From contig JAWWBR010000002.1 in the NCBI GenBank assembly GCA_033720855.1, positions 972-64,971 on the forward strand: a stretch of DNA of 64,000 bases, written 5' to 3'. How positions within the stretch are numbered: position 1 is the stretch's first letter; each line of letters opens with the position of its first letter. The position numbers and the translations under genes are program-made. Below are positions 1 to 60,446 of this stretch, one piece after another. This stretch comes from Alphaproteobacteria bacterium. Its GTDB lineage: Bacteria; Pseudomonadota; Alphaproteobacteria; SMXQ01. The notes under the pieces are model-generated. The model had not been told where the DNA came from, did no database searches, and was given only the letters and a program-made list of their open reading frames with translations.

Positions 1-1255
1 TGTTGGCGTAATTCACGGTGCCGTCATGGGGATCACAGGTCAGAATATTGATCGGCATTTCCTCGACCATCTGCTTTATCCGGAAGTTCTCGCCCACGGC
101 GAGCTTCAGCTTGTCCAGGGCACGCCAGACCATCCCGATTTCGTCCCGGCGCTCGGTGCCGATGACCTCGATGTCGGTCCGACCATGGGTCAGCTTCTCC
201 ATGCCCGCAGCGAGCCGCACCAATGGATTGGAGATGGCGGAGCCGATGACGTAGGAAAACAGCACGATGAAGCCCAAGGCGACAAGCACGGCAAGCAACG
301 TATAGAACTTTGTCGCCTCGCCATTGGCGTCCAGGGTGGCGCGGGCGGCCTCGGCCTGTTCCTTGAAAGCCTTCACCATCTTCTCCATGACGGGCACGGT
401 CTTGGCATAGCTGGCACTGAGAAGCTTGAGATTGTCCCCCAAGGTGAGATAGCCCTTGGCCATGGCGGCGAAGGCCGACTGGTAGGCGGCCAAATGCCTG
501 GTGATCTCCGCCTTTTTCGCCGGTGGAAGCGGGGAGGCCGCGAGGCGCTTGCTGAAGGTTTCCGCGCGCTTGACCATGCGGGTGACGTATTTCTTGTCGA
601 GGCGGAGGAGGAAGTCCTTCTCATGGCGGCGCATCATCAGCATGGTCACCATCAGGTTATCGGCGCCGACACCTTTGAGGGCCGATTCGATATCGTGGAC
701 GGATTTCCGCGCATTGCCGCGAAGGCCGCTCTTCTCGTCGAGGCCGAGGGTCTTTTTCATCTCGACCACCTTGCGGAACTGGGCGCCGTAGGCATCGATG
801 AGCGGCTTGAGCGCCTGGATGTGGGCCTCGGTCTCCGGCGTCAGGCCACTTTTGTTCAGCGCGTCCAGATAGGTATAGACCTCCGCAAGATTCTTCTCGT
901 GGCGTTTGGCGTATTTGGTGCTGGAGCGCAGGAGAAAGTCCTTTTCGTTTCGCCGCAGCTGCAGCATGCCGATCTGGGTCGCATTCACCTTCGCTGCCCG
1001 GTTCTCTGCCGCTTCGAATTCATTAACAACCGCGATGCCCTCGCTCATCGAGAGATGGGTGAAGGTGCCGACGCCGGCCAGCGCGACTACGCCCACCAAC
1101 GCAAGGGCGCTCACCTGGTACTTGATCTTGAACCGAGACAGGAAGGCGCCGAAGCGGAGCAATTCCGCCAAACGGCCCAGGACCGACATCGCCGCCTTTG
1201 CGGGCGCCTTTTTAGCGTTTCCCGCGTCTTGCGAAACTTCTTGGGACATGTTCAT
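1..1255 (-). CDS. Methyl-accepting chemotaxis protein, N-terminal part. It has two TM segments, a 4HB/CHASE3-like periplasmic region with KDFLLR motifs, a HAMP domain and the start of a PAS domain (MPINILTCD). The C-terminal signalling domain lies beyond the window start.
   Basis: I translated the minus strand by hand. Met (MNMSQE...) is at 1253-1255 and the frame stays open to position 2. The ORF is absent from the track because it runs off the edge. HAMP and PAS motifs are recognisable. Confidence 0.75.
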   Translation of the reverse strand, partial: MNMSQEVSQDAGNAKKAPAKAAMSVLGRLAELLRFGAFLSRFKIKYQVSALALVGVVALAGVGTFTHLSMSEGIAVVNEFEAAENRAAKVNATQIGMLQLRRNEKDFLLRSSTKYAKRHEKNLAEVYTYLDALNKSGLTPETEAHIQALKPLIDAYGAQFRKVVEMKKTLGLDEKSGLRGNARKSVHDIESALKGVGADNLMVTMLMMRRHEKDFLLRLDKKYVTRMVKRAETFSKRLAASPLPPAKKAEITRHLAAYQSAFAAMAKGYLTLGDNLKLLSASYAKTVPVMEKMVKAFKEQAEAARATLDANGEATKFYTLLAVLVALGFIVLFSYVIGSAISNPLVRLAAGMEKLTHGRTDIEVIGTERRDEIGMVWRALDKLKLAVGENFRIKQMVEEMPINILTCDPHDGTVNYAN

Positions 1256-1661
1256 TTTCCTTTCAATCTGTCAGGAGTGCCGAGCCCTCCATTCCGGCGA
1301 TGGCACGCCACTTTGCCGGGAACATGCGATACATATTTCCTGGTTAAAGCTAATTAGTGAAAATCCTGTTAATGATAAAATATAAGATCCCAATAACATT
1401 ATATTATCCTATGATATACTATACATTTTGTTTCAGTTTATTACGTGTGTAACACAGAATTACAATCGAGCCCTACGATTTTCTGGTTAACCCGAATTCC
1501 CCTGGATGAAGCCAAGGGGAGGGGCTGCAAGCGCGGATCGACGCAAGGTTGCGCATTGCTTACCATCGCGCCAGACTGGGCCGTTCTAAGGAAGGCCGGG
1601 GGTGAACCCGCGAGGGTATCGCAGCCCGGGTGTCGTCCGCTGCCGAGGTCAACCGAACGTC
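1256..1661. promoter_or_regulatory. Divergent intergenic region between the MCP and the response regulator. About 1330-1500 is an unusually AT-rich stretch containing the inverted repeat TGTGTaACACA. A GC-rich leader of about 160 nt then precedes the response-regulator start.
   Basis: The base composition contrasts sharply with the GC-rich flanks. Genes diverge from this region on both strands. Confidence 0.4.
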
Positions 1662-6436: not shown

Positions 6437-6551
6437 GGCCGGCAGCCTAGGCCGCAGCGGTGAAAGACCGGTTAATCGGCAATCAGGCAATGCATCCGCC
6501 GGACCATTGCGCCACAGGTGGTGGCGGAGCGGATCCGCGGCGCGCCGGGCC

Positions 6552-7180: not shown

Positions 7181-7390
7181 GTACGAAAAACCTCCGCCGA
7201 CCAAGGTAGATCGGAATGGTAAAATTTGCCTTAATTGCCGTCTATTTCGGCCCCGCGTATTTGCAATAACCAGCTGATATTCATAAATTAATGCCCGCCA
7301 AAGCGGGACCGTCCGCGGGCGCGGCGGGAATTCCATAGTAGCGTCCTCGACCAGAACCTATATAAACATCCCCATGGTTCGCTTCCGGAG

Positions 7391-19907: not shown

Positions 19908-20107
19908 GGGGCACCCCCTTGAAGAACGCGCGCTCATTTCACGGTGAATTCCAAAAAACGGCCGATTTGAGAGACCTAAAAAAACGTTAGAAAACATGAG
20001 GATATCGGTGTGCTTGTTAAGCAAATCATAACCAAATTCCGATCATTTTAAAGGTATGCATCACGAATGAAACAAGTCCTGTTCCACCTAAGATAAAGGA
20101 AATTGTC

Positions 20108-21052
20108 ATGGGTAATGGAAATGCTGCCTTGACTTCCGCCGTGGCCCGCCGCATGCGGCGGGCGAAATACAGCGCCGTCACCGCGGTCCTAGGCGTTTCG
20201 GTTCTTGCCTTTTCGGCCTTCGGCGCCGCCGCCGAGACCAAGATCGTCTTCGGCGCCTATTCGTCGGACAAACCTTCGGCGATGATCGCGCAAGTGCACC
20301 CGACCCTTGATGCCATCGCCAAAAAGATGATGGAGATGTATGGCGAAAAGGTGTCGTTCCGCATGCAGATCGTGCGCGGCTACAAGAAGGGTGTCGATCA
20401 CCTGGTTGCGAAGAAATTCGATATCATGCGCCTGGGCCCCGCGTCCTACGTCATGGCCAAGAAACGCGCGCCGCAAATCACCATTTTGGCGATGGAGAAC
20501 AAGCACGGCAAGAAAACCTTCAACGGGATCATCGCCGTCCACAAGGACAGCACGCTGACAAGCCTCGACCAATTGCGTGGCCGGACCTTCGCATTCGGTT
20601 CCAAGCGTTCGACCTTGGGACGCTTCTTCGCCCAGCTGACCTTGACCGAGGCCGGCGTCCTTGCGAAGGACCTTGCGCGTTTCGAGTATCTCGGACGCCA
20701 CGACAAGGTGGGCCGAGCCGTTGGCGCCAAACTCTTCGAGGCCGGCGCCCTCGAGGGAACCACCTTTGCGAAGCTCGTGCGCAAGGGTGTTCCCATCCGC
20801 GCCCTGGCCAAATTTTCCAACGCCACGCGGCCCTGGATCGTCAGGGAAGGGATGAACCCCGGGCTTGCAGACAAGATTCGGAAGGCCATGCTTGCCGTGA
20901 CCGACAAGGCGGCCACCCGCGCGCTGCGGTTCGACGGCTTCCTGCCGGGCGACGATTCGGACTACGCGCCTACGCGGATGGCAATCCAGGAGAATCATCT
21001 ATTTTTCGAAGGTTTCACGGGCTTCAAAACCCAGCAGCAAAGCCGCCGCTGA
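20108..21052 (+). CDS. PhnD/SsuA/transferrin-family periplasmic substrate-binding protein.
   Basis: ORF 20108..21052. A signal peptide and the conserved PhnD-like core are present. An AAGGAAA RBS lies upstream. Confidence 0.8.
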   Translation: MGNGNAALTSAVARRMRRAKYSAVTAVLGVSVLAFSAFGAAAETKIVFGAYSSDKPSAMIAQVHPTLDAIAKKMMEMYGEKVSFRMQIVRGYKKGVDHLVAKKFDIMRLGPASYVMAKKRAPQITILAMENKHGKKTFNGIIAVHKDSTLTSLDQLRGRTFAFGSKRSTLGRFFAQLTLTEAGVLAKDLARFEYLGRHDKVGRAVGAKLFEAGALEGTTFAKLVRKGVPIRALAKFSNATRPWIVREGMNPGLADKIRKAMLAVTDKAATRALRFDGFLPGDDSDYAPTRMAIQENHLFFEGFTGFKTQQQSRR

Positions 21053-21084: not shown

Positions 21085-22563
21085 ATGGTGAGGGTGCGAG
21101 TGCCGCACTTTAGACTAAGTTCGCAAGTGCTTATTTCCCTGGTCCTGTTGGCGGTCATCACCGCCTTCGGGACCGGGCTTGCGATTCAATGGTTCGAAAG
21201 ATCCTACCTGGTGTCCCAGATCACCGAACGCGCCAATGACAAACTGCGCATCCTTGTCGCGTCGTCGCTGGACGATCTGATCAGTGAGGATGTCCCCCGC
21301 CTGGAGACGACCGTCCAACAGCTGGCGGAGAAAGACCCGAAGCTGGTCGGCGTCACCATCCTCAACGAAGAAAAGGCCGAACTCTTCGCGTGGCGGAAAA
21401 AGCCCTTTCCGCCGAGGGAAGACGTCTACGTTTTTTCGAATAAGGTTGATTTTCACGGCCAGCATTTCGGCACCATTACGATCCTTTGGAACAAAAGGCA
21501 GAGCGAACAGGCCTTTATCCTTCACTCCTACCGCATCGCGGTGTTCGTCAGCTCCACCTGTTTCGTGATCGGATTGCTGGCCTTCTTCGTCATTCGCATC
21601 CTCGTGGTCGAGCCCGTCCATACCATCGCCAATCGGGCGCTCAATTTCCGGCGACACATCTTTGACGACGGCAAAAAAGTGGGTTCCTACGCCTCTTCGG
21701 AGCTGAAGCGTCTGGATGACGCTGTGAACTCGTTGGGCGAACTGCTTCAGTCGCAGGAAATGAGGGAAACGGAACTCAAGACCGCCAAGGAACTTGCCGA
21801 GACCGCAAACCGCGCGAAATCGAATTTCCTTGCGAATATGAGCCATGAACTGCGTACCCCTTTGAACGCCATCTTGGGCTTCTCCCAAATCATGGAATCC
21901 CAAATATTCGGCCCCCTCGGCGACGCAAAGTACCTGGCCTACGTGAAGGACATCAGGGTCTCGGGCGACCATCTCTTGAAGATCATCACCGAAATCCTGG
22001 ACGTATCGAAAATCGAAGCCGGCAAGCTCAGCCTGGACATCGGCCGCGTGCACCTGCCCAAGACCATCAAGTATGCGCTTGGGCTTCTGAGTTCGGATAT
22101 CGAGAACGCCAAATTGGAGTTTATGGTCGACGTCCCCGATTCGGTGCCGGAGCTTCAAGCCGACGAGCTGCGGATGCGTCAGATCATCATCAATCTCGTG
22201 TCCAACGCGCTCAAATTCACGCCGGAGGGGGGAACCGTCTCTCTGAACTTGAAGTGGCGGCAGTCCGAGGGGGTGGAGATTTGCGTGAAGGACACCGGCG
22301 TCGGGATCACCGAAGATAAAATCCCCCGTATCCTGTTGCCGTTCGAGCAGATCCACGACGCCATGACGGAAGCGAACCAGGGGGCGGGACTTGGGTTGCC
22401 CCTCGCCAAGGCGCTGACCGAGCTTCAGGGCGGAAGGCTGACCCTGACAAGCACATTAGGCGAGGGGACCGAAGTCAGAATCTTCTTCCCGAGCGAACTT
22501 CTTCTTACCTCGGACGTGGATCTCCCAAGCGACGGGGAAGGGCCGGCGAAGAGGATTGCTTAG
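21085..22563 (+). CDS. Membrane sensor histidine kinase. Domain order is TM, periplasmic loop of about 130 aa, TM, HisKA, HATPase_c. There is no receiver domain.
   Basis: ORF 21085..22563. H-box [17 protein letters not shown]-box and G1/G2 boxes are present. It sits immediately downstream of the substrate-binding protein gene. Confidence 0.85.
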
Positions 22564-22564
22564 G

Positions 22565-23824
22565 CTAGAACCTCCCGAACCATCCCTCTTTCTTCTTTAT
22601 CTGGCACTCGGCCCGCCAGTTGGCCGGAATCGCGTCGGCGACAACCTTTCGGAACCGTTCGAGGGGGCAGAACCCGCCACCGCAGCCCGGGATCTCGATG
22701 GTCTTCTCGGCCTCCTTGGACACGAATTTCAGCCGCACCGAATAGGCTTTGGGCGCGGTTTCGTGAAGCTCGAACGCGTAACGGGAGCCGAGCGGCGGAA
22801 CGCGGCCCTTGAACAGCGGCCCCTCGGTCCGCGCGGTCTCGATCCCAAGCGCCGCTTCGAGCCCAAGCACCGTGCGCTGATGGCCGGAATAGATGTAAAG
22901 CTTGCGCGCGGTTTTGGGGTCTTTGGCGTATTTCAGGAAATTGCCCAGGACCTCGCCGACCATCGGCCCACCGGTCAAACGGCCCATCTTCTTGCCCAGG
23001 AATTGATGGTGATAGTTCCAATCCGAGAGCAGGCGCAGAAGCTCCATGTCCTTCTCGGTGATCTCGCTGGACAAGGGTTTCTTGTGGGCAATGAACGCCG
23101 TCAGGGGTTCATAGATTTCGTTGATCCCGTAGAGGATCCTTGCCGGACTCTTGCCCTCGTTGATGCCGGTAATCGACGCTATGCGCCGAAGGAACGGCTC
23201 GAAACGTTTCGCCTGCGCCTTGTAGAGCTTGCTCTTGGGAAGCGCCTTCACGAATTGCCGGTAGCGCTGGCAGTTCGCCTGACCGGTCCAGGGGCGCAGC
23301 ACGGCATCATTCCTGAGCGACACCGCGTGAATGGGCACCGGGGTGAAAGCCAAATCGGGGCGCGGTACCGCCTTGAGCGAATTATCGTAAACCGCGGGGT
23401 CCGGGCCTGTCCCCAGGGGGTAAAGGCCAAGCGCCAAAACCTGGGCGGTCTGCAATGCCCGGTCGGCATTGCTGGCCCGGAAATAGACTTCCTTGAGATT
23501 GTATCGCGGGGATATAAGCCCCAGCTGGTCGACGTACAACTTCCGCAATTCCTGGCCGTTGGCATAGGTCTTGGTCACACCGATGGCGGTGAGCTGCCGG
23601 TACCCCATGGGCCAGTCCGTCTTGAGCTTGGGCGGGCTGTATTTGGGCGAGATCACGCTGTGGCGGAACAGCAGGCTCACGGACCTTAGAGTCTTGCGGT
23701 CCGCCTCGAGGGCCTCAGAAGATTGGGCGATCGCCCCCTCGCTCACGATGCTCGAGAGCAATATCGTCGCGAGCGCGATCGCTGACCCAGCCAGCCAAGA
23801 GGAATTTTTCGCGCATGTAATCAT
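22565..23824 (-). CDS. Secreted histidine acid phosphatase-family protein (branch 2) with non-canonical active-site motifs: RHSVISP instead of RHGxRxP, and HQ instead of HD.
   Basis: ORF 22565..23824 on the - strand. A signal peptide is present. The overall AppA-like pattern is conserved (FRHS...P...G.L...G...RT..SA.A...GL.P ... SGHQ). Confidence 0.65.
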   Translation of the reverse strand: MITCAKNSSWLAGSAIALATILLSSIVSEGAIAQSSEALEADRKTLRSVSLLFRHSVISPKYSPPKLKTDWPMGYRQLTAIGVTKTYANGQELRKLYVDQLGLISPRYNLKEVYFRASNADRALQTAQVLALGLYPLGTGPDPAVYDNSLKAVPRPDLAFTPVPIHAVSLRNDAVLRPWTGQANCQRYRQFVKALPKSKLYKAQAKRFEPFLRRIASITGINEGKSPARILYGINEIYEPLTAFIAHKKPLSSEITEKDMELLRLLSDWNYHHQFLGKKMGRLTGGPMVGEVLGNFLKYAKDPKTARKLYIYSGHQRTVLGLEAALGIETARTEGPLFKGRVPPLGSRYAFELHETAPKAYSVRLKFVSKEAEKTIEIPGCGGGFCPLERFRKVVADAIPANWRAECQIKKKEGWFGRF

Positions 23825-24527
23825 GAGACGTCTCCATTGCCATGGCGTATTTCGATAGGGTTTGCTGCTCCATGCCCAGATACCGAAGCTTTTGCAGAAG
23901 GGTTTCCGATATCCGGTCGTTGAACTTCAATTCGACGATGAAATGGGTCGGCGGCACGACCGCGATAAGGTCCCCGGGCGGTACGTTCAAGGTGGTGGAA
24001 AGGGAGCAATGCAGTTCCTCGTCTAAGGTAAGGCGGACATTGTCCTGGAACTGCCCGTTGAGCGCGGTCCGGTAATAGACCACGGTCGTGACCGGGGAGA
24101 GGGCAAAGCGGTCGTGCAAATATTTGAATTCCGCGAGAACCGAGTTTTCGAGTTCGCGATCGCTCAGAAACAGCGGACCGCGTGAGAGAAGACGCCGGGC
24201 AAGATCCAAGTCGATCGGCACACGCCGTTTCTCGACGATGCGGTCGTAGCGCGCCTTCAGTTCCAAAAAGACCGCGGATGGCGGTGCGGACGGTGCGGAT
24301 CTGTAGAGGCGAATGCGGGGCTTGATGCGAACCAAATCGCCTTCGCGTTTTTCACCGTAAAAACGGTAATTGGGCGAATCGAAATATATCGAGTAGTTGA
24401 CGTATGTCCCCTGGCTGTCGCCGTTGGGGTCAGTCGAGAAAAAGCCGCCGATCGTCTCCCGCAGTTCCGCTTTGCGCGTCGCCTCGACGAGATACTTGAT
24501 CTCATATCTGTTGGTGAAAGCGAACAT
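23715..24527 (-). CDS. VTC-domain (polyphosphate-polymerase-like) protein.
   Basis: ORF 23715..24527 on the - strand. The YEIKYLV... motif of VTC/CYTH-like domains is present. The 3' end overlaps the phosphatase gene by about 110 nt in another frame. Confidence 0.7.
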   Translation of the reverse strand: MFAFTNRYEIKYLVEATRKAELRETIGGFFSTDPNGDSQGTYVNYSIYFDSPNYRFYGEKREGDLVRIKPRIRLYRSAPSAPPSAVFLELKARYDRIVEKRRVPIDLDLARRLLSRGPLFLSDRELENSVLAEFKYLHDRFALSPVTTVVYYRTALNGQFQDNVRLTLDEELHCSLSTTLNVPPGDLIAVVPPTHFIVELKFNDRISETLLQKLRYLGMEQQTLSKYAMAMETSHDYMREKFLLAGWVSDRARDDIALEHRERGGDRPIF

Positions 24528-24599: not shown

Positions 24600-25289
24600 T
24601 CATGCGTTGACCGTGCCTTCACCGACCAGCAGGCTCACCGACAGCGGATTAACCGCCTGGGACAGCTTTTCCACGAGCTGGTCGTAATCGACCCCTCGCT
24701 TGAGGTGCACCTCATAGACGACGTCTTCCAAATCGTCGCCGGTTTCCATGCGGCTCACGGAAACCACCGACATGCGATCGCACATGGTTTTGCAGAGCTC
24801 CGCAATCCTGTCCCGGTCTCCGGGCCGCATGCGCATCTTCAGGACATAACCACTGGACCGCACGTCGCCGAAGCGCCAGTAATGCATGGCCACCACGACG
24901 ATGATCATGAAGCCGACGAAAATACCCGCGAAATCATAGAACCCGGTGCCGCAAGCCATGCCCACGGCGATGCCGGCGAAGAGAAAGACGAGATCCTTGG
25001 TGTCCTTGACCGGTGTCCGGAATCTGACGATCGACATGGCCCCCACCAGGGCAAAGGCACGGGCGATGTCGGAGCCGATGATGACCATGATCAGGGTGAC
25101 GGTAATGCCAACCAGAATGAGGGCTTGGACAAACGACTTGGAGTAGGAATACCCGCCATGGGTCGCCATGTAGAGTTTGGCGAGAATGCCGTTGAGGACT
25201 GCGGTCAGAAGCAGGGCCAACCCGATGTCGAGTGGGGTCGCCGAACTCAAGAGCGCCGTTTCTTGCAAAATCTGGTCGCTGAAATCCAT
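24600..25289 (-). CDS. DUF4956 domain membrane protein, the usual partner of bacterial VTC-domain proteins.
   Basis: ORF 24600..25289 on the - strand. Several TM helices are present. The DUF4956 signature region is IVRFRTPVKDTKDLVFLF. Confidence 0.7.
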   Translation of the reverse strand: MDFSDQILQETALLSSATPLDIGLALLLTAVLNGILAKLYMATHGGYSYSKSFVQALILVGITVTLIMVIIGSDIARAFALVGAMSIVRFRTPVKDTKDLVFLFAGIAVGMACGTGFYDFAGIFVGFMIIVVVAMHYWRFGDVRSSGYVLKMRMRPGDRDRIAELCKTMCDRMSVVSVSRMETGDDLEDVVYEVHLKRGVDYDQLVEKLSQAVNPLSVSLLVGEGTVNA

Positions 25290-25590
25290 CCTGACTGCAT
25301 CCTCCCTGTAAGGTCGCGGGTCTCACATTCGAAACCGCCACGCGCACTCAACCCAGAACCGACCGCACCGCGAAAGCCATCTCTCCGGTCATCACCCCGA
25401 CACCGGGGGAACCATGGCGTGAGTCAATGCTGTTGAGAGCCCCCAAGGTGCCTGTAACCGGCTATCGGCCATAAACCCATACCTCACACCGAGGATTCTC
25501 AGGCGCAATAAGCCAACCAGCCCGGTTAACAAACTTGGTAAAGAGTTTATTAACAGCCTGTGAATAATTGCAAGTGCATAATTATTAAAA

Positions 25591-25606
25591 GATTATCATG
25601 ATAATC
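25591..25606. promoter_or_regulatory. Perfect 16-bp palindrome GATTATCATGATAATC inside an AT-rich island (about 25525-25650). It is a candidate operator for a metalloregulator (Fur/Zur-like hexamer content) or another dimeric transcription factor.
   Basis: I read this directly from the sequence. It lies about 300 bp upstream of the DUF4956-VTC-phosphatase operon start. A flanking TTAACA...TTAACA direct repeat and a small hairpin (25654-25669) are nearby. Confidence 0.45.
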
Positions 25607-25776
25607 ACACAGGCCTTTGAGCGAATTACGCTAAGCACCTGATTTCATGACAACATAGGGGGGCTTCGCAAGTGCGAAGAGGCCTGTCGCGGCCCGCAGC
25701 GACCCAGGGGATGTGGTTCCCCTGCCAGGACAGACCAAAAATAGCGGTGGTTTTTTGAGGGTGCCCGGAAGCGCGG

Positions 25777-26112
25777 CTAGCGCCCCATGCCGAGGAGCCC
25801 CCGCGTCCACCATTCAGGGCGGCCGCGACGCCGTTTCAAGACCTCGCGGCGACAGGTTGCGGGCACGGGATGCCGGCTTATCAGACGCTCGAACAGCTTC
25901 GGGGAAACCAGGGCGGCGAGCTTCATGACCATCGCCTCGGACAGGTAGGGCTGCTGAATGATCGCAGCATGAAGCGATTCATCGCGGGGGTCCGCATCCA
26001 GCGCGGCCATCATCTGCGCTTCTTTCGCCTCGGCGCTATCATCGTCGGGCTGATCGATCGCCGACGCCTCGTCAGGCTGCCGCGCGAGAGGATCCAACAT
26101 TGAAGAATTCAT
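25777..26112 (-). CDS. Hypothetical small acidic protein of about 111 aa.
   Basis: Part of ORF 25777..26340 on the - strand. The start is likely MNSSML (codon 26110-26112) with a GGAGG RBS. I recognise no family for it. Confidence 0.4.
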   Translation of the reverse strand: MNSSMLDPLARQPDEASAIDQPDDDSAEAKEAQMMAALDADPRDESLHAAIIQQPYLSEAMVMKLAALVSPKLFERLISRHPVPATCRREVLKRRRGRPEWWTRGLLGMGR

Positions 26113-26329
26113 GGGCCTACCTCCGCGCAGATTGTGGCCGCCGTACGTAAAGGAAGTGTTAAAGCCGCGCACCGGTGGGCCCGTCGCGGCCTTGGAACAT
26201 GGCGCGTTAGCAGGTCGCGCGAGCCGGGCCGGACGCGTATGCGGCCAGGCGGAATGCATAATGGAAGGAGACGAACCGTAGGATCGCGCTATACTCAAAA
26301 AAAACGACCGCGCAGGCTCGAAGCGCCGC

Positions 26330-28217: not shown

Positions 28218-29963
28218 CTATTCCATTCTTTCGAGATTGCCGAGACGCAGCACCGCCTCGGTGACGATCTGCACGTCGCGGAGCAGATTGCTCAGCAGCT
28301 TGAACTCGTTGGGTTTATGGGCGCGGCCCCTCTGCCCGGGCACCCCGGGCCCGAACTGCACGCCGTTGGGAAGCTGACGCGCCGAGGTATAGCCGTTGGA
28401 TGACCGCGGCTTGGCGTCGATCCCGCTCACCTCGCGGAAGGTCACAAGCAGGTGTTGGATCCACGGCCCCTTGGGATCGCGATACATGGGTCGTTTGATC
28501 TTGACGCTGATGGATACGTCGGTCCCGGTGCGCCGCTTCCAGGTATCGAGCGCGCGCCTGATCTCGTCAACCAGCTGATCTCGATCCTTGCCACGGGGTG
28601 CGCGCGGATTGACCACAAGATGTAGCGCGCCGTCTTTGACCTTCACGTAGGTGACCGGCGTCGTCAGCGCCCCCATGAAGGGATCGGAATATCCGATACC
28701 GAGCTTTCCGCCGTGATAGTTCAGGCCCCAGTTGTCCGAGACATAGGCGGCGGCATCGGTGAAATGGTTGCGTTTGAGGGGCGCCGCGCGGCGCACCTGA
28801 TGGAGGAAATCGAACAGCCTGGAAACCGGATTGACGCCGCGCGACGGGCGCGCCGAATGGGCACCCTCGCCGAAAACCGTGAGCCTGACGCGATCGCCCT
28901 CGACCCGGGTTTCGATCTTGAAGTTCGCGCCATTGGCGGCGACGTAGCGCGCCGCCAGTGGGTCGAGGGCGCGTTTCAGGGCCGGCGCGTCGGCGGCCGC
29001 GATCACGGCCAGGGCCTCGGCAGGGATCTGATTGAAAACCACGCCGCCGGTAGCGTGGAGGATCTCGCCACCGGGGCCCGATCCCTTGCGCACCGGAAAC
29101 TTCGCCATAACGATCCCGAAGCCCTTCTCCGCGACGCCCACGGGATAGCGTCCGTCCAGCACCAGGTTGTAGGGCGCCAGGGTGGTCTTGGTCTTGTAGT
29201 ACTCGGTCGCCGAACCCCCTGTTTCCTCCGTGGTCTCTATCGCCAGGCGGATGGTCTTGGAGGGGATGAAGCCTTCCCGCTTGATGGACCCGAGCACATA
29301 GAGCGCGGCGGCGATGGAACCCTTGTTATCGGAGGCCCCGCGGCCGTACATGCGATCGCCCATCACCGTCAGTTTGAACGGATCCAGCTTCTTTCCATCC
29401 CTGAGCAACCACTTGGCAGGGTTGACGGGAACCACATCGGAATGGGTGAAGATGCCGATCGAACCGGATCCTGTTCCCTTCAGGGTGACTTCGAAAATGC
29501 GGTTATCGAAGTTGCGGAAGGCGAGGCCGAACTTTCGGGCGACCGCTTCGATGGCCCTGCCCATACGGTGGATGTTGGGATTGTCGTGCTGAGCCAGGTT
29601 CTCCTTCTTGTCGGTGGGGATGGCAACGAACCGGGCGAGCGTCGCGATGAGCTCATCGCGGTATTTGATCCGGGTGTAAAGCCCAAGCAAGCGATACAGA
29701 TTGACCCGGTCGGCATCGTCGAGGGCCGCCTTCGTCTGACGCCGGTCAAGGGCCCGGGCCAGGCCGTCGTGCGCCAGTCCCGGCCGCAGGTCTTTTGCGA
29801 AGGTAGCGAAATCCCGTGGGCGCGTCGCGGAGACGCGCTGCAGCAGTTCTTCCAAGCCGGCCTTCTGGATGACCTCCTGTGCGGACGTGGAACCGGGCAG
29901 GGCGGTCAAAAGGGATGCCACCCCCAGAGAACACAGGAATAGTCGAGACAATCTCTTGCCCAT
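28218..29963 (-). CDS. Secreted M20-family metallopeptidase (Sapep/dipeptidase-like).
   Basis: ORF 28218..30038 on the - strand. The start is likely MGKRLSRLFL... (codon 29961-29963) with a GGGGGAT RBS. M20 motifs HSDVVP and GASDNKG are present. Confidence 0.8.
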   Translation of the reverse strand: MGKRLSRLFLCSLGVASLLTALPGSTSAQEVIQKAGLEELLQRVSATRPRDFATFAKDLRPGLAHDGLARALDRRQTKAALDDADRVNLYRLLGLYTRIKYRDELIATLARFVAIPTDKKENLAQHDNPNIHRMGRAIEAVARKFGLAFRNFDNRIFEVTLKGTGSGSIGIFTHSDVVPVNPAKWLLRDGKKLDPFKLTVMGDRMYGRGASDNKGSIAAALYVLGSIKREGFIPSKTIRLAIETTEETGGSATEYYKTKTTLAPYNLVLDGRYPVGVAEKGFGIVMAKFPVRKGSGPGGEILHATGGVVFNQIPAEALAVIAAADAPALKRALDPLAARYVAANGANFKIETRVEGDRVRLTVFGEGAHSARPSRGVNPVSRLFDFLHQVRRAAPLKRNHFTDAAAYVSDNWGLNYHGGKLGIGYSDPFMGALTTPVTYVKVKDGALHLVVNPRAPRGKDRDQLVDEIRRALDTWKRRTGTDVSISVKIKRPMYRDPKGPWIQHLLVTFREVSGIDAKPRSSNGYTSARQLPNGVQFGPGVPGQRGRAHKPNEFKLLSNLLRDVQIVTEAVLRLGNLERME

Positions 29964-58354: not shown

Positions 58355-60352
58355 CTAGCGTCCGAACAGGCCTTTCAGTCCTTCTTCGATCGGCGATGAG
58401 GACGGTTTTTCCGTCGGCTGCGTGGTGGTGCCCGACCCGGAGGATCCACCGCCCATCCCCGGAATCAGCCCCTTGACGCCCTCCAGCGCCTTTTCCGGCT
58501 GCTTGGCGATGCCGCCGAGCGCCGCGCCGAGATCCGGCGTGTAGCTGATGTCGTGCCAGGGCCCCTTGACGTTCACCGGCACCGAAATGCCGGTCGCCGA
58601 GGCGGCGCCGCCCTGTCCCGTGGCCGTCGCCACGAGTTTCGGCTCGACCCGGTAATCGATCGTGCGCTTGGGCAAGTCCACGGTCCCCTTGCCGGTCAGC
58701 CTCAGCAGCGGCGACTTCAACAAGAGATCGTTGTTGGTCAGGATCCCCCGCCGGATGACGAAGGTCCCGCCCATCTCAGAGAAGTCCGTCTTCTGGGTTT
58801 CCCGCGCGCTGGAATCGAGGAATGCGCTCTTCACGTTCCGCACCATGGCGCCCAGGTTGACCCCCTTGATGGCGCCATCCCGGAAGGTGACCTTGCCGTT
58901 GCCGGCGAGGGCCTCGATCATCTGGCGCTGGCTGCGGCCCTGGGTGTTGATACTGACGTCGGCATCGGCGGCCCCTTCGATGCGATCGAAATTCATGGCA
59001 TCGCGCATGAACGGATTGGCCTGGAATTTGGTCAGGGTCGAGGTCAGGGTCACCGAGGGCACGGCACTGCCACCCCGGGTCGTGACCTTGGCCTTACCGA
59101 CGCCGCCGTAGAGCGCCATCTTGGAAAGGTCGGTGACCAACGTGCCGTTGTTCAGGGTCACCTTGAGGACCGATTCGCCGATCTTGATCTTGCGCATGAC
59201 GATACCGGCGACCGTGAGGTCCAGGGCCGCATTCATCGCGTCGAGGGCCTTCAGATCGATGGGATCGTCGCTCCAGTCGCCGGGGCCCTGCTGTGCCGTC
59301 CCGGATTTGGCCGGTGCCGCCTGTTCGGGCGGCAAGTAGGGGTTAAGGTCGAGCTCGCCCAGTTTCAGCGCCGCGGTGATCAGCGGCTTGCGGCCGCGCT
59401 GGTCGAACGCCAGGCTGCCCTCGCCCGCGATCGCATCGAGGCTGAGCTTGGCATTGCGAAAGGCCGTCACCTTGCCCTTCATGTCGAGGTCGCCGGAAAT
59501 CTTGAGCGGCCCCAGGCCGGTGCCCGGCGCGTTCAATGGCGACCCTGCCCAGGCCGCGAGCTTGCGCACCGAGGGAACCGCGAGGTCGATGCGCCCGGCG
59601 ACGGCGACCGCCGGGCCCGTGGACGCCTTGCCCTTGAAGGACAACCCCACCGGCGCCGACTTGAGAGAGATATCGACACCGGTGCTGCGCCCGGCAAGGG
59701 CCGCGTTGGGATCGGAGAGCACCGCGGTCAGGGTCAGCTGTTCCTTGTTCCACACCACCGACCCTTCGGCGCGCATGGGACTGGAGAGGGAGGGGAGGGC
59801 GACCTTGAGATTGATGTCGTCGACGCTATGGGCGGCGCCGGTCTTCATATCGAGATAGCTGATGCGGCCGTCGACCAGACGTACGTCGCCGAGCTTCAGT
59901 CCGCCGAGACCGGGCCCGCCCGCCGCCGCGCCGGCCTCGGGCTTGGCCGCGCCCGGTTTGGCGCCGGTGCCGAAATCCCAGTTGCCGCGCCCTTGCCGGT
60001 CGACCTCGAGGTTGATGACCGGCTTCTCCGCGACCAGGGCATCGACCTCCAGGTTGCCGCCCAGCAGCGGGAAGATGCCGACCTTCACCGTCAGCCGGTC
60101 CAGGGTCATCATGTTCTCGGCCTTGCCGCCCTTGGCATTGCCGAGCGATACCTTGCCGGCGACGAATTCGGCGCGCGGCAGGACGGAAAGCTTGAAATCG
60201 CCGTCGATTCGCGCCTTGCGCCCGGTGGCCTGCTCGATGCCGGCGACGATCTCGCGCTTGTAGACCTCGACCGGGATGAAGGCGGGCACGATCAGGGCGG
60301 CCGCGATCACCAGAACGACCAGCACCCCAAGACCGATGAGAACCTTTTTCAT
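58355..60352 (-). CDS. AsmA-family protein.
   Basis: ORF 58355..60394 on the - strand. The start is likely MKKVLIGLGV (codon 60350-60352) with a GGGGAGAG RBS. It has an N-terminal TM anchor and the AsmA-like repetitive beta-rich body. Confidence 0.8.
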   Translation of the reverse strand: MKKVLIGLGVLVVLVIAAALIVPAFIPVEVYKREIVAGIEQATGRKARIDGDFKLSVLPRAEFVAGKVSLGNAKGGKAENMMTLDRLTVKVGIFPLLGGNLEVDALVAEKPVINLEVDRQGRGNWDFGTGAKPGAAKPEAGAAAGGPGLGGLKLGDVRLVDGRISYLDMKTGAAHSVDDINLKVALPSLSSPMRAEGSVVWNKEQLTLTAVLSDPNAALAGRSTGVDISLKSAPVGLSFKGKASTGPAVAVAGRIDLAVPSVRKLAAWAGSPLNAPGTGLGPLKISGDLDMKGKVTAFRNAKLSLDAIAGEGSLAFDQRGRKPLITAALKLGELDLNPYLPPEQAAPAKSGTAQQGPGDWSDDPIDLKALDAMNAALDLTVAGIVMRKIKIGESVLKVTLNNGTLVTDLSKMALYGGVGKAKVTTRGGSAVPSVTLTSTLTKFQANPFMRDAMNFDRIEGAADADVSINTQGRSQRQMIEALAGNGKVTFRDGAIKGVNLGAMVRNVKSAFLDSSARETQKTDFSEMGGTFVIRRGILTNNDLLLKSPLLRLTGKGTVDLPKRTIDYRVEPKLVATATGQGGAASATGISVPVNVKGPWHDISYTPDLGAALGGIAKQPEKALEGVKGLIPGMGGGSSGSGTTTQPTEKPSSSPIEEGLKGLFGR

Positions 60353-60446
60353 GACACTCTCCCCTGTTCGGGCACCCCGTGCTCGATGCCGCATCGCGTT
60401 GCAATACTACTATATGTATGCGCCCGACCCTAAGGTTGAAAGGGCC

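What the first reader, a model, noticed from the sequence alone, without database searches (positions are those of the whole stretch)
25525..25670. AT-rich island with a perfect 16-bp palindrome GATTATCATGATAATC upstream of the DUF4956-VTC-phosphatase operon
In a genome that is about 65% GC, a stretch of roughly 125 bp falls to about 35% GC. It contains a perfect 16-bp inverted repeat made of GATAAT/ATTATC hexamers, which is Fur/Zur/Mur-box-like content. It also has a TTAACA...TTAACA direct repeat and a 7-bp stem hairpin at 25654-25669. This is the kind of operator a dimeric metalloregulator or another repressor would bind. It implies that the downstream phosphorus/polyP operon is under metal or nutrient control rather than, or in addition to, PhoB control.
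Basis: seen in the sequence. Interest (0 to 1): 0.5.

Follow-up and report, generated by a model that had tools for sequence, protein, structure and literature searches.

The report
Lineage-specific palindrome in a CtrA-box promoter
The perfect 16-bp palindrome is real, but it is found only in this lineage and does not fit the Fur, Zur or Mur boxes known for Alphaproteobacteria. It sits in an ordinary AT-rich promoter region whose conserved parts are a -35-like TTGCAA and a CtrA-type (cell-cycle regulator) box.

Summary
GATTATCATGATAATC is present at 25591-25606, inside a 33%-GC stretch. It lies 302-317 nt upstream of the minus-strand DUF4956-VTC-histidine phosphatase operon.

Five other lineages carry the same operon (75-85% DUF4956 protein identity) and the same AT-rich island. 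None has the palindrome or any Fur-like site. They all conserve TTGCAA-N14-TTAA-N7-TTAAC(CA), which contains a textbook CtrA box. In the window the 3' half-site is TTTAC.

A second CtrA box lies 34 nt before the ATG of the adjacent small DUF2336/SpbR-like gene. It is conserved in all relatives where that region was recovered.

The palindrome matches the classical Fur box only 13/19, and its half-sites are everted. It scores 3.1 bits on a Caulobacter Fur matrix whose training sites score at least 15.5. It lacks the Zur core GTTA-N5-TAAC and has no Pho box. It has no second copy in 64 kb, and as RNA it folds at only -2.6 kcal/mol.

Verdict: this is a normal promoter and control region, probably CtrA-controlled. 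The palindrome is a young, lineage-specific feature of the AT-rich DNA upstream of the promoter. A newly acquired operator for an unknown dimeric regulator is not excluded. Interest is low to moderate.

The parts
25591..25606 (.). Perfect 16-bp palindrome GATTATCATGATAATC. It is lineage-specific. It is centred about -60 if TTGCAA is the -35 element.
   Evidence: It is absent from the homologous, collinear position in L003, L004, L014, L016 and L018. As RNA it folds at -2.6 kcal/mol, no better than shuffles.
25484..25681 (.). AT-rich island (100-bp windows at or below 42% GC; the core 25525-25650 is 33% GC). It is the promoter and control region of the operon.
   Evidence: An AT-rich island at the same relative place is seen in all relatives.
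25568..25573 (-). TTGCAA, a -35-like hexamer that is itself a 6-bp palindrome. It is the core of the invariant block CTTGCAATT.
   Evidence: Invariant in six lineages. It reads TTGCCT in L021 and is lost in L008/L020.
25578..25585 (.). 8-bp A/T palindrome ATAATTAT just upstream of the -35-like hexamer. Relatives carry AATATATT or CAAATATATTTG at the same place.
25538..25553 (-). CtrA-type box TTAATAAACTCTTTAC (TTAA-N7-TTTAC, one mismatch to TTAA-N7-TTAAC). Its first TTAA is inside the invariant TTAATA.
   Evidence: The orthologous boxes are perfect TTAA-N7-TTAAC(CA) in L003, L004, L016 and L018, read TTAAT in L014, and have N6 spacing in L021.
25525..25530 (.). Third half-site GTTAAC (TTAAC), 8 nt downstream of the box. 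It is conserved in most relatives.
25631..25635 (-). CTTAG on the operon strand. This is the left half of the CTTAG-N9-CTAAG inverted repeat seen in L003, L004 and L016. The right half is degenerate in the window (CTCAA).
   Evidence: TTAG at -61/-62, and CTAA at -49 and -24, relative to TTGCAA in the relatives.
25664..25679 (.). The TGCGAA part is conserved in relatives; the hairpin is not.
25290..25537 (-). Long GC-rich leader (248 nt) between the box and the DUF4956 ATG. It has a conserved CTTGGGG block.
   Evidence: No Rfam family matches and there is no covariation support.
24600..25289 (-). DUF4956 membrane protein gene, the first gene of the operon.
   Evidence: Pfam PF16316, E = 1.1e-14.
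23715..24527 (-). VTC-domain (polyphosphate-polymerase-like) gene.
   Evidence: Pfam PF09359, E = 3.6e-29.
22565..23824 (-). Histidine acid phosphatase (branch 2) gene. The gene caller's start is at 23746.
   Evidence: Pfam PF00328, E = 1e-23; gene call in L001.
25777..26112 (-). Small DUF2336/SpbR-like gene upstream of the island, on the same strand as the operon.
   Evidence: Synteny is conserved in L014, L016 and L018.
26147..26162 (-). Second CtrA-type box TTAACACTTCCTTTAC, 34 nt before the ATG of the SpbR-like gene. It is followed after 10 nt by the -10-like CACAAT (26131-26136).
   Evidence: The box is perfect TTAA-N7-TTAAC in L003, L004, L005, L009, L014, L016 and L018, in GC-rich surroundings.

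Best explanation
The AT-rich island is the ordinary, conserved promoter and control region of the DUF4956-VTC-phosphatase operon.

Its conserved core on the operon strand has three parts:
- a short A/T palindrome;
- the -35-like hexamer TTGCAA;
- 14 nt further on, an array of TTAA half-sites forming a CtrA-type box (TTAA-N7-TTAAC; TTTAC in this lineage) plus a third TTAAC.

The inferred mechanism is as follows. RNA polymerase uses TTGCAA as the -35 element. The response regulator CtrA, in its phosphorylated form, binds the box. The box would then start near -14, which is the position associated with repression in Caulobacter. If instead the box serves a downstream promoter from the -35 position, CtrA would activate. 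Either way, expression of the polyphosphate-like operon would be tied to the cell cycle or developmental state. The neighbouring SpbR-like gene has a canonical promoter with a CtrA box at the -35 position.

The 16-bp palindrome lies further upstream, at about -53 to -68. It arose in this lineage by substitutions in a poorly conserved stretch. Its right arm overlies a conserved CTAA(T/G) motif; its left arm overlies non-conserved sequence. It is most likely not a Fur/Zur/Mur operator. I take it to be part of the A/T-rich upstream promoter DNA (like an UP element, or a target for a MucR-type silencer) with no dedicated, conserved regulator.

Shown: the sequence features, their conservation or lack of it, and the motif statistics.
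Inferred: the transcription start site, CtrA binding, the direction of control, and the lack of a specific function for the palindrome.
For: (1) The island and its core are conserved. CTTGCAATT and TTAATA are invariant in six lineages, while the N7 spacer and the flanks vary. L021 keeps TTAATA and TTAAC with N6 spacing; N6 spacing occurs in real CtrA sites (PMC11264516, PMC4287350).

(2) The box is perfect TTAA-N7-TTAAC(CA) in L003, L004, L016 and L018. The consensus and the position rules (about -39 for activation, about -14 or over the -10 for repression) come from PMC11264516 and PMC4287350.

(3) An independent second box lies before the SpbR-like gene in every lineage where that region was recovered. 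It sits in GC-rich context, at a fixed 34 nt from the ATG, and is followed by a -10-like GACAAT or CACAAT.

(4) CtrA-type sites are enriched in the window:
- 8 strand hits with at most 1 mismatch, against 1.18 expected;
- 6 against 0.54 within AT-rich islands, with local composition preserved (1 of 2000 shuffles);
- 5 exact TTAA-N7-TTNAC sites against 0.24 expected, all upstream of and co-oriented with a gene.

(5) The palindrome is not conserved. The window is collinear with the relatives across this stretch (TTAG at -61 against -62), so this is not an alignment artefact.

(6) The palindrome fails the Fur-alpha, Zur and Pho tests and has no second copy.

(7) Its RNA hairpin is negligible.
Against: - No transcription start site data exist. 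TTGCAA to TAATAA is a 15-nt spacer, shorter than the usual 16-18, and position 6 of that candidate -10 varies among lineages. The consensus promoter scan found nothing.
- The window's own box has a mismatch (TTTAC). Taken alone it is not significant: P(at least 1) = 0.07 in island shuffles.
- Neither ctrA nor its absence can be checked, because only 64 kb of the genome is available. The one OmpR-family regulator in the window is not CtrA.
- A perfect 16-bp palindrome in a 136-bp island has a probability of about 0.003 by chance, and it sits at a typical class I activator position. A newly acquired operator therefore remains a real possibility.
- The more distant relatives L008/L020 and L009 lack both TTGCAA and the box upstream of DUF4956.
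Confidence: 0.55

Rival explanations
1. The palindrome is a newly evolved operator for an unidentified dimeric transcription factor that is not of the Fur family. The site is centred about -60 from the promoter, so the factor would act as a class I-type activator or an upstream co-repressor. This would add a lineage-specific input to an ancestrally CtrA-controlled promoter.
For: - It is a perfect 8+8 dyad, with a chance probability of about 0.003 within the island.
- It lies in the promoter-upstream region of a conserved control region.
- Relatives carry a different dyad nearby (CTTAG-N9-CTAAG in L003, L004 and L016). That dyad is degenerate in the window, which would fit turnover of binding sites.
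Against: - It is not conserved in any relative.
- It is a single copy in 64 kb, even when variable spacing and 2 mismatches are allowed.
- No transcription factor gene lies next to the operon.
- It matches none of the motif families I tested.
- Perfect 16-bp palindromes occur about 1.7 times per window by chance.
Confidence: 0.25
2. The palindrome is a Fur/Zur/Mur-type metalloregulator operator that places the phosphorus/polyphosphate operon under metal control.
For: - It contains GATAAT/ATTATC hexamers.
- The best matches are 13/19 to GATAATGATAATCATTATC, 13/18 to the 9-1-9 form and 11/14 to the 7-1-7 form. These are somewhat better than composition-matched shuffles (P = 0.02-0.05).
- Fur sites upstream of the -35 element can activate transcription in Caulobacter (PMC2724300).
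Against: - The half-sites are everted with a 2-nt spacer, not head-to-head around one base.
- On the validated alphaproteobacterial Fur matrix the region scores 3.1 bits, against at least 15.5 for real sites. The Mur box is described as similar to that box (PMC1698941).
- The Zur core GTTA-N5-TAAC is absent (motif from PMC4176598). The match to the E. coli Zur consensus is worse than in shuffles.
- No Fur-like site occurs in any orthologous island.
- There is no second copy in the window.
- The P values are post hoc, because the site was picked for this sequence content.
Confidence: 0.07
3. The palindrome overlaps a divergent plus-strand promoter found only in the window. It would use TTGCAA (25568-25573) as -35, a 17-nt spacer, and GATTAT (25591-25596) as -10. 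It would drive an antisense or non-coding transcript running towards the SpbR-like gene.
For: - TTGCAA reads the same on both strands.
- The spacer is the optimal 17 nt.
- GATTAT has the key A2 and T6 positions of a -10 hexamer (sequence).
Against: - The combined hexamer match is only 8/12, below the scan threshold, and the scan found nothing.
- It is not conserved: relatives have GACTTA or CGAATT at that place.
- There is no downstream plus-strand gene for about 720 nt.
- No terminator or Rfam family was found.
Confidence: 0.05
4. The palindrome acts as an RNA hairpin followed by a U-run (UUUUAAUAAUU on the operon strand). It would be an intrinsic terminator for the upstream SpbR-like gene.
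For: On the minus strand the palindrome is followed directly by TTTT. It lies downstream of the SpbR-like stop codon at 25777.
Against: - The hairpin is 6 bp, almost all A-U, at -2.6 kcal/mol, no better than shuffles (114 of 200 fold at least as well).
- The terminator scan found none.
- It is not conserved in relatives.
Confidence: 0.03

Closest known systems
CtrA-controlled promoters of Alphaproteobacteria (Caulobacter fliQ, ctrA P1/P2/P3, hemE Ps, pilA)
   Same: - The consensus is TTAA-N7-TTAA(C), with N6 variants, extra half-sites and CTAA-type degenerate halves.
- A box whose 5' end is near -39 activates; a box near -14, or over the -10, represses (PMC4287350, PMC11264516).
- The SpbR-like promoter here has the canonical arrangement with the box at the -35 position.
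- The island has a conserved full box plus a third half-site.
   Different: - In the window both orthologous boxes, and three other sites, read TTTAC or TTCAC instead of TTAAC.
- The island box lies 248 nt from the ATG, behind a long leader.
- No binding, transcription start site or ctrA gene could be examined.
- The target, a DUF4956-VTC-phosphatase operon, is not a CtrA target known to me. My literature search for DUF4956 found nothing relevant.
Classical Fur box (GATAATGATAATCATTATC; 9-1-9 AATGATAATnATTATCATT; 7-1-7 TGATAATnATTATCA)
   Same: It is built from GATAAT/ATTATC hexamers, is A/T-rich and has dyad symmetry. The best matches are 13/19 and 11/14.
   Different: - The hexamers are in the opposite (everted) order, with an even 2-nt spacer.
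- It lies upstream of the promoter rather than over it.
- It is not conserved and occurs once.
- Alphaproteobacterial Fur, as validated in Caulobacter, recognises ATTGCGAAnnnTTCTCAAT-type sites, which this palindrome does not resemble.
Upstream auxiliary sites and UP-element-like A/T tracts, and AT-rich CtrA promoters silenced by MucR
   Same: - It is A/T-rich DNA between about -40 and -70 of a promoter in a GC-rich genome.
- MucR1/2 repress CtrA-activated G1-phase promoters in Caulobacter (PMC6847485).
- The pilA promoter has extra regulatory sites upstream of its -35 box (PMC11264516).
   Different: No MucR motif or protein could be tested. A perfect 16-bp dyad is not a requirement of either an UP element or a MucR target.

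Membership tests
Classical Fur box (gamma-proteobacteria and Bacillus) | Sequence match to the 19-bp consensus and to the 7-1-7 core | tested here: inconclusive
   Matches are 13/19, 13/18 and 11/14, with P = 0.05, 0.03 and 0.02 against dinucleotide shuffles of the island. The comparison is post hoc.
Classical Fur box (gamma-proteobacteria and Bacillus) | GATAAT and ATTATC halves head-to-head around a single central base (odd symmetry) | tested here: not met
   The sequence is ATTATC-AT-GATAAT: everted order and even symmetry.
Classical Fur box (gamma-proteobacteria and Bacillus) | Conserved in orthologous promoters, or recurring in a regulon | tested here: not met
   No Fur-like site occurs in seven related islands. 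No second copy occurs in 64 kb. A genome-wide regulon could not be scanned.
Alphaproteobacterial Fur-alpha and Mur box | 19-bp 9-1-9 motif of the ATTGCGAAnnnTTCTCAAT type (27 Caulobacter sites, PMC2724300) | tested here: not met
   The best matrix score overlapping the palindrome is 3.1 bits. Training sites score 15.5-26.7 bits.
Zur box (Proteobacteria) | Core GTTA-N5-TAAC (PMC4176598); E. coli 23-bp consensus | tested here: not met
   No hit with at most 1 mismatch falls in the island. The E. coli consensus matches 11/22, worse than shuffles (P = 0.98).
Pho box (PhoB) | Two CTGTCAT repeats 11 bp apart | tested here: not met
   The best match in the island is 8/14 (P = 0.93). In the intergenic region the window has only two 10/14 matches, and relatives have none at 10/14 or better.
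Irr ICE box and RirA box | TTTAGAA-N3-TTCTAAA; TGA-N9-TCA (PMC1698941) | tested here: not met
   The ICE best match is 10/14 and lies away from the palindrome (P = 0.16). By inspection of the sequence, no TGA-N9-TCA spans the palindrome.
CtrA box (applies to the neighbouring conserved element, not to the palindrome) | TTAA-N7-TTAA(C) direct half-sites | tested here: met
   The window has TTAA-N7-TTTAC at 25538-25553, one mismatch. The box is perfect in L003, L004, L016 and L018 at the homologous place. A second conserved box lies before the SpbR-like gene.
CtrA box (applies to the neighbouring conserved element, not to the palindrome) | Placement over the -35 (activation) or the -10 (repression) of a mapped promoter | tested here: inconclusive
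   The SpbR-like promoter reads box-N10-CACAAT, which fits the -35 class. For the island box, placement depends on an unmapped transcription start site. If TTGCAA is the -35 element, the box starts near -14.
CtrA box (applies to the neighbouring conserved element, not to the palindrome) | The organism encodes CtrA, and CtrA~P binds the site | not testable with these tools
   Only 64 kb of a metagenome-assembled genome is available. The regulator at 1602-2375 is a generic OmpR-family protein: 110 bits against the 350-bit CtrA cut-off.
Intrinsic terminator | Stable GC-rich hairpin followed by a U-run | tested here: not met
   The fold is -2.6 kcal/mol with z = 0.26. The terminator scan found no sites.
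Known RNA families (Rfam 15) | Covariance-model match in the island or the leader | tested here: not met
   Nothing was found at gathering score or at relaxed E-values, in the window or in nine related loci.

The most novel reading that the evidence does not exclude
A bacterial VTC-domain/DUF4956/acid-phosphatase (polyphosphate-like) operon and the adjacent SpbR-like gene belong to the CtrA cell-cycle regulon in an uncultured alphaproteobacterial clade. In this one lineage two further changes would have occurred. The CtrA 3' half-site has shifted to TT(T/C)AC. The promoter has also gained a brand-new perfect-dyad operator for an unidentified dimeric regulator, possibly one responding to metals or nutrients.
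Probability: 0.15. Interest if true: 0.45.

Novelty: new member of a known kind. Interest (0 to 1): 0.25.

Why it matters
If the CtrA reading holds, it links a poorly understood bacterial VTC/DUF4956 polyphosphate-type module, and a secreted acid phosphatase, to cell-cycle or developmental control in free-living Alphaproteobacteria. It also gives two compact promoters that can be tested directly. On its own the palindrome matters little. It illustrates how a striking perfect dyad can arise in AT-rich promoter DNA without being conserved, and how hexamers that look like a Fur box are a poor guide in Alphaproteobacteria, where the validated Fur box is different.

Tried and rejected
- **Rfam.** Gathering and relaxed searches of the window and of nine related loci found nothing in the island or the leader.
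- **Promoter and terminator scan.** The consensus scan of 25000-26100 found no sites.
- **Leader RNA.** The RNAalifold consensus was weak and the covariation term was unfavourable (+1.27 kcal/mol), so I dropped it as a riboswitch candidate.
- **Closer relatives.** The closest lineage (P0002, 87% identity) has only 92 bp of upstream sequence. A search with the SpbR-like protein returned only the protein itself. Conservation in closer relatives therefore could not be tested.
- **Viral contigs.** A scan of IMG/VR for the 16-mer gave 20 single-copy hits in 2.9 million contigs. I judged this to be about chance level, with no recurring context, so it was uninformative.
- **Literature.** A search for DUF4956 found only a non-significant (P = 0.175) entry in a Bacteroides iron stimulon table.
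- **Other motif families, by inspection of the sequence.** I considered and rejected sigma-54 (no GG at -24), CRP/FNR/FixK boxes (at most 3/5 per half), an ARG box (half only), IHF, DnaA, the SOS box GTTC-N7-GTTC, and a dif site (poor arms, no GC-skew switch, not conserved).
- **Deletion origin of the palindrome.** I rejected this because the window is collinear with its relatives.

Full report
**1. The observation**

The window is 63.2% GC. The stretch 25525-25650 is 33% GC. GATTATCATGATAATC is a perfect 16-bp palindrome at 25591-25606. TTAACA occurs at 25526-25531 and 25550-25555.

The operon is on the minus strand:
- DUF4956, 24600-25289 (PF16316)
- VTC, 23715-24527 (PF09359)
- histidine acid phosphatase, 22565-23746/23824 (PF00328)

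The palindrome lies 302-317 nt upstream of the DUF4956 ATG. It sits in a 487-bp intergenic region whose other boundary is the stop codon (25777) of a small DUF2336/SpbR-like gene on the same strand.

**2. Is it more than chance?**

Perfect 16-bp palindromes are not rare. The window has three, against 1.7 expected from composition. One inside this 136-bp island has a probability of about 0.003 (590 of 200,000 shuffles). After allowing for the many intergenic regions that could have been looked at, this is only modestly significant.

The AT-rich island is not exceptional either. The window contains six such islands. Those I examined lie just upstream of gene starts.

**3. Comparative evidence**

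The source is an uncultured alphaproteobacterial MAG. I recovered upstream DNA for the same operon from several other lineages:
- L003 = L005/L006
- L004 = L007
- L014 = L015
- L016
- L018
- L021
- L008 = L020
- L009

Their DUF4956 proteins are 72-85% identical to the window's. All keep an AT-rich island 250-400 nt before the DUF4956 ATG.

Six lineages (the window, L003, L004, L014, L016, L018) share, on the operon strand, the invariant blocks CTTGCAATT and TTAATA, followed by TTAAC(CA) and usually a further (G/A)TTAAC. The sequence between these blocks varies freely. L021 keeps TTAATA and TTAAC with one base less between them. The more distant L008/L020 and L009 have lost TTGCAA and the box.

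The window is collinear with its relatives through the palindrome. TTAG is at -61 from TTGCAA in the window and at -62 in the relatives. The palindrome therefore occupies a homologous position. Its right arm overlies a conserved CTAA(G/T) motif. Its left arm overlies non-conserved sequence.

No relative has the palindrome. The longest perfect palindromes in their islands are 6-12 bp, and these are the A/T dyads directly next to TTGCAA.

**4. What the conserved core is**

TTAATA-N5-TTAAC is TTAA-N7-TTAAC, the consensus CtrA box of Alphaproteobacteria (PMC11264516, PMC4287350).
- It is perfect in L003, L004, L016 and L018.
- It reads TTAAT in L014.
- It has N6 spacing in L021. N6 spacing is known from ctrA P2 and from pilA sites 2 and 3.
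- It reads TTAA-TAAACTC-TTTAC in the window, at 25538-25553.

Three further observations support a real CtrA-type regulon.

(a) A second box sits 34 nt before the ATG of the SpbR-like gene.
- It is present in the window (26147-26162, TTAACACTTCCTTTAC).
- It is perfect TTAA-N7-TTAAC in L003, L004, L005, L009, L014, L016 and L018.
- Its surroundings are GC-rich.
- Ten to eleven bases later comes a -10-like GACAAT or CACAAT.
- This is the canonical arrangement with the box at the -35 position.

(b) CtrA-type sites are enriched.
- Sites with at most one mismatch give 8 strand hits against 1.18 expected in the window.
- Within the AT-rich islands the count is 6 against 0.54, with each island shuffled separately (1 of 2000 shuffles).

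(c) The five exact TTAA-N7-TTNAC sites (0.24 expected) all lie upstream of, and co-oriented with, a minus-strand gene:
- a CHASE3/HAMP sensor
- a DUF454 protein
- a small lipoprotein
- DUF4956
- the SpbR-like gene

Taken alone, the window's island box is not significant (P = 0.07). The inference rests on conservation and context.

**5. Promoter geometry (inferred)**

If TTGCAA (25573-25568 on the minus strand) is the -35 element, then TAATAA follows after 15 nt. The start site would be near 25538, the CtrA box would start near -14, and the palindrome would span about -53 to -68.

In Caulobacter a full box whose 5' end is at about -14 represses, and one at about -39 activates (PMC4287350). The same box could also activate a promoter further downstream, as at ctrA P2/P3.

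The geometry is not settled. The 15-nt spacer is short, position 6 of the candidate -10 is not conserved, and the consensus scan found no sigma-70 promoter.

**6. Tests of the metalloregulator reading**

- *Classical Fur consensus.* The best matches are 13/19, 13/18 and 11/14, with P = 0.02-0.05 against island shuffles. The hexamers are everted (ATTATC-AT-GATAAT), whereas the Fur box has GATAAT-n-ATTATC.
- *Alphaproteobacterial Fur.* The validated box is different: ATTGCGAAnnnTTCTCAAT (Caulobacter, PMC2724300). It is similar to the predicted Fur-alpha and Mur boxes (PMC1698941). A matrix built from the 27 published sites gives 3.1 bits over the palindrome, against 15.5-26.7 bits for the training sites.
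- *Zur.* The proteobacterial core GTTA-N5-TAAC (PMC4176598) is absent.
- *Irr and PhoB.* The Irr ICE and Pho box consensus sequences do not match.
- *Relatives.* None of the related islands contains a convincing Fur-like site. P = 0.25-1.0 in six of them; the L021 values of 0.04-0.16 come from matches over its conserved TTAATA...TTAAC block.
- *Copies.* No second copy or gapped variant occurs in 64 kb.
- *RNA.* The palindrome is a 6-bp A-U hairpin of -2.6 kcal/mol, no better than shuffles, so it is not a terminator.

**7. Conclusion**

The island is an ordinary, conserved promoter and control region. Its functional core is most probably a CtrA-type box array next to a -35-like TTGCAA.

The palindrome is a young feature specific to this lineage, within the A/T-rich upstream part. 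I consider it most likely to have no dedicated regulator. I give about 0.25 to a newly acquired operator for an unknown dimeric factor, and about 0.07 to a Fur-family operator.

Nothing here departs from known kinds of bacterial promoter architecture. The modest novelty is the putative link between a VTC/DUF4956 polyphosphate-like operon and CtrA control.

Noticed in passing
window 1357-1372, 6460-6475, 7219-7234, 25538-25553, 26147-26162 (all minus strand): There are five exact TTAA-N7-TTNAC sites against 0.24 expected. All lie upstream of, and co-oriented with, a gene. None has the canonical TTAAC 3' half: three read TTTAC and two read TTCAC. The orthologous boxes in relatives read TTAAC. 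This could be a lineage-specific shift in CtrA half-site preference, or these could be weaker sites.
   Followed up: partly
window 26131-26162 (minus strand) and the homologous places in L003, L004, L005, L009, L014, L016, L018: The small DUF2336/SpbR-like gene has a conserved canonical promoter of the form CtrA box, N10-11, GACAAT or CACAAT. The box ends 34 nt before the ATG.
   Followed up: yes
window 25290-25537 (minus strand); leaders of L003, L004, L014, L016, L018, L019: The long leader has a conserved GGGAGGT..CTTGGGGC block. L003, L004, L016 and L018 may carry a 12-codon upstream ORF starting at TTG, with aligned stop codons, but the substitutions do not look codon-like. L004 and L019 have a hairpin followed by a T-run (GGGGG-N7-CCCTC-GCTTTTTGG), which resembles an attenuator. 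There is no covariation support and no Rfam match.
   Followed up: partly
L003, L004, L016, about -62 to -44 from TTGCAA; window 25617-25635: The inverted repeat CTTAG-N9-CTAAG is conserved in three relatives (a perfect 11-bp stem in L003), with a further CTAA 25 nt downstream. In the window only the left half survives. This may be an ancestral operator that has been lost or replaced in the window's lineage.
   Followed up: partly
window 1-1600: The 443-aa plus-strand ORF at 26-1357 has no Pfam match and is probably spurious. A minus-strand ORF starting at ATG 1255 runs off the start of the window and has weak, below-cut-off Pfam matches to CHASE3 and HAMP domains. It is divergent from an OmpR-family response regulator (1602-2375) across a 237-bp AT-rich island (1285-1521).
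   Followed up: partly
window 19919-20144: An AT-rich island lies upstream of the pair formed by a PhnD-like binding protein gene (20108-21052) and a histidine kinase gene (21085-22563). This pair is convergent with the operon. The island contains TTAAGCAAATCATAAC (TTAA-N7-ATAAC), which ends 76 nt before the ATG.
   Followed up: no
window 60335-60353: The best match in the window to the Caulobacter Fur matrix is GATGAGAACCTTTTTCATG (13.0 bits, below the training minimum of 15.5). It lies near the 5' end of the ORF 58355-60394.
   Followed up: no
window 20145-20162 and 29643-29660: The window's two other perfect palindromes (18 bp, GC-rich: CCCGCCGCATGCGGCGGG and CGCGATGAGCTCATCGCG) both fall within ORFs listed.
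   Followed up: no
window 25664-25679 and relatives: The block TTGCGnCTGCGAA(A)AA is conserved in all lineages between the SpbR-like stop codon and the AT-rich island. It forms a hairpin only in the window. Its function is unknown.
   Followed up: no
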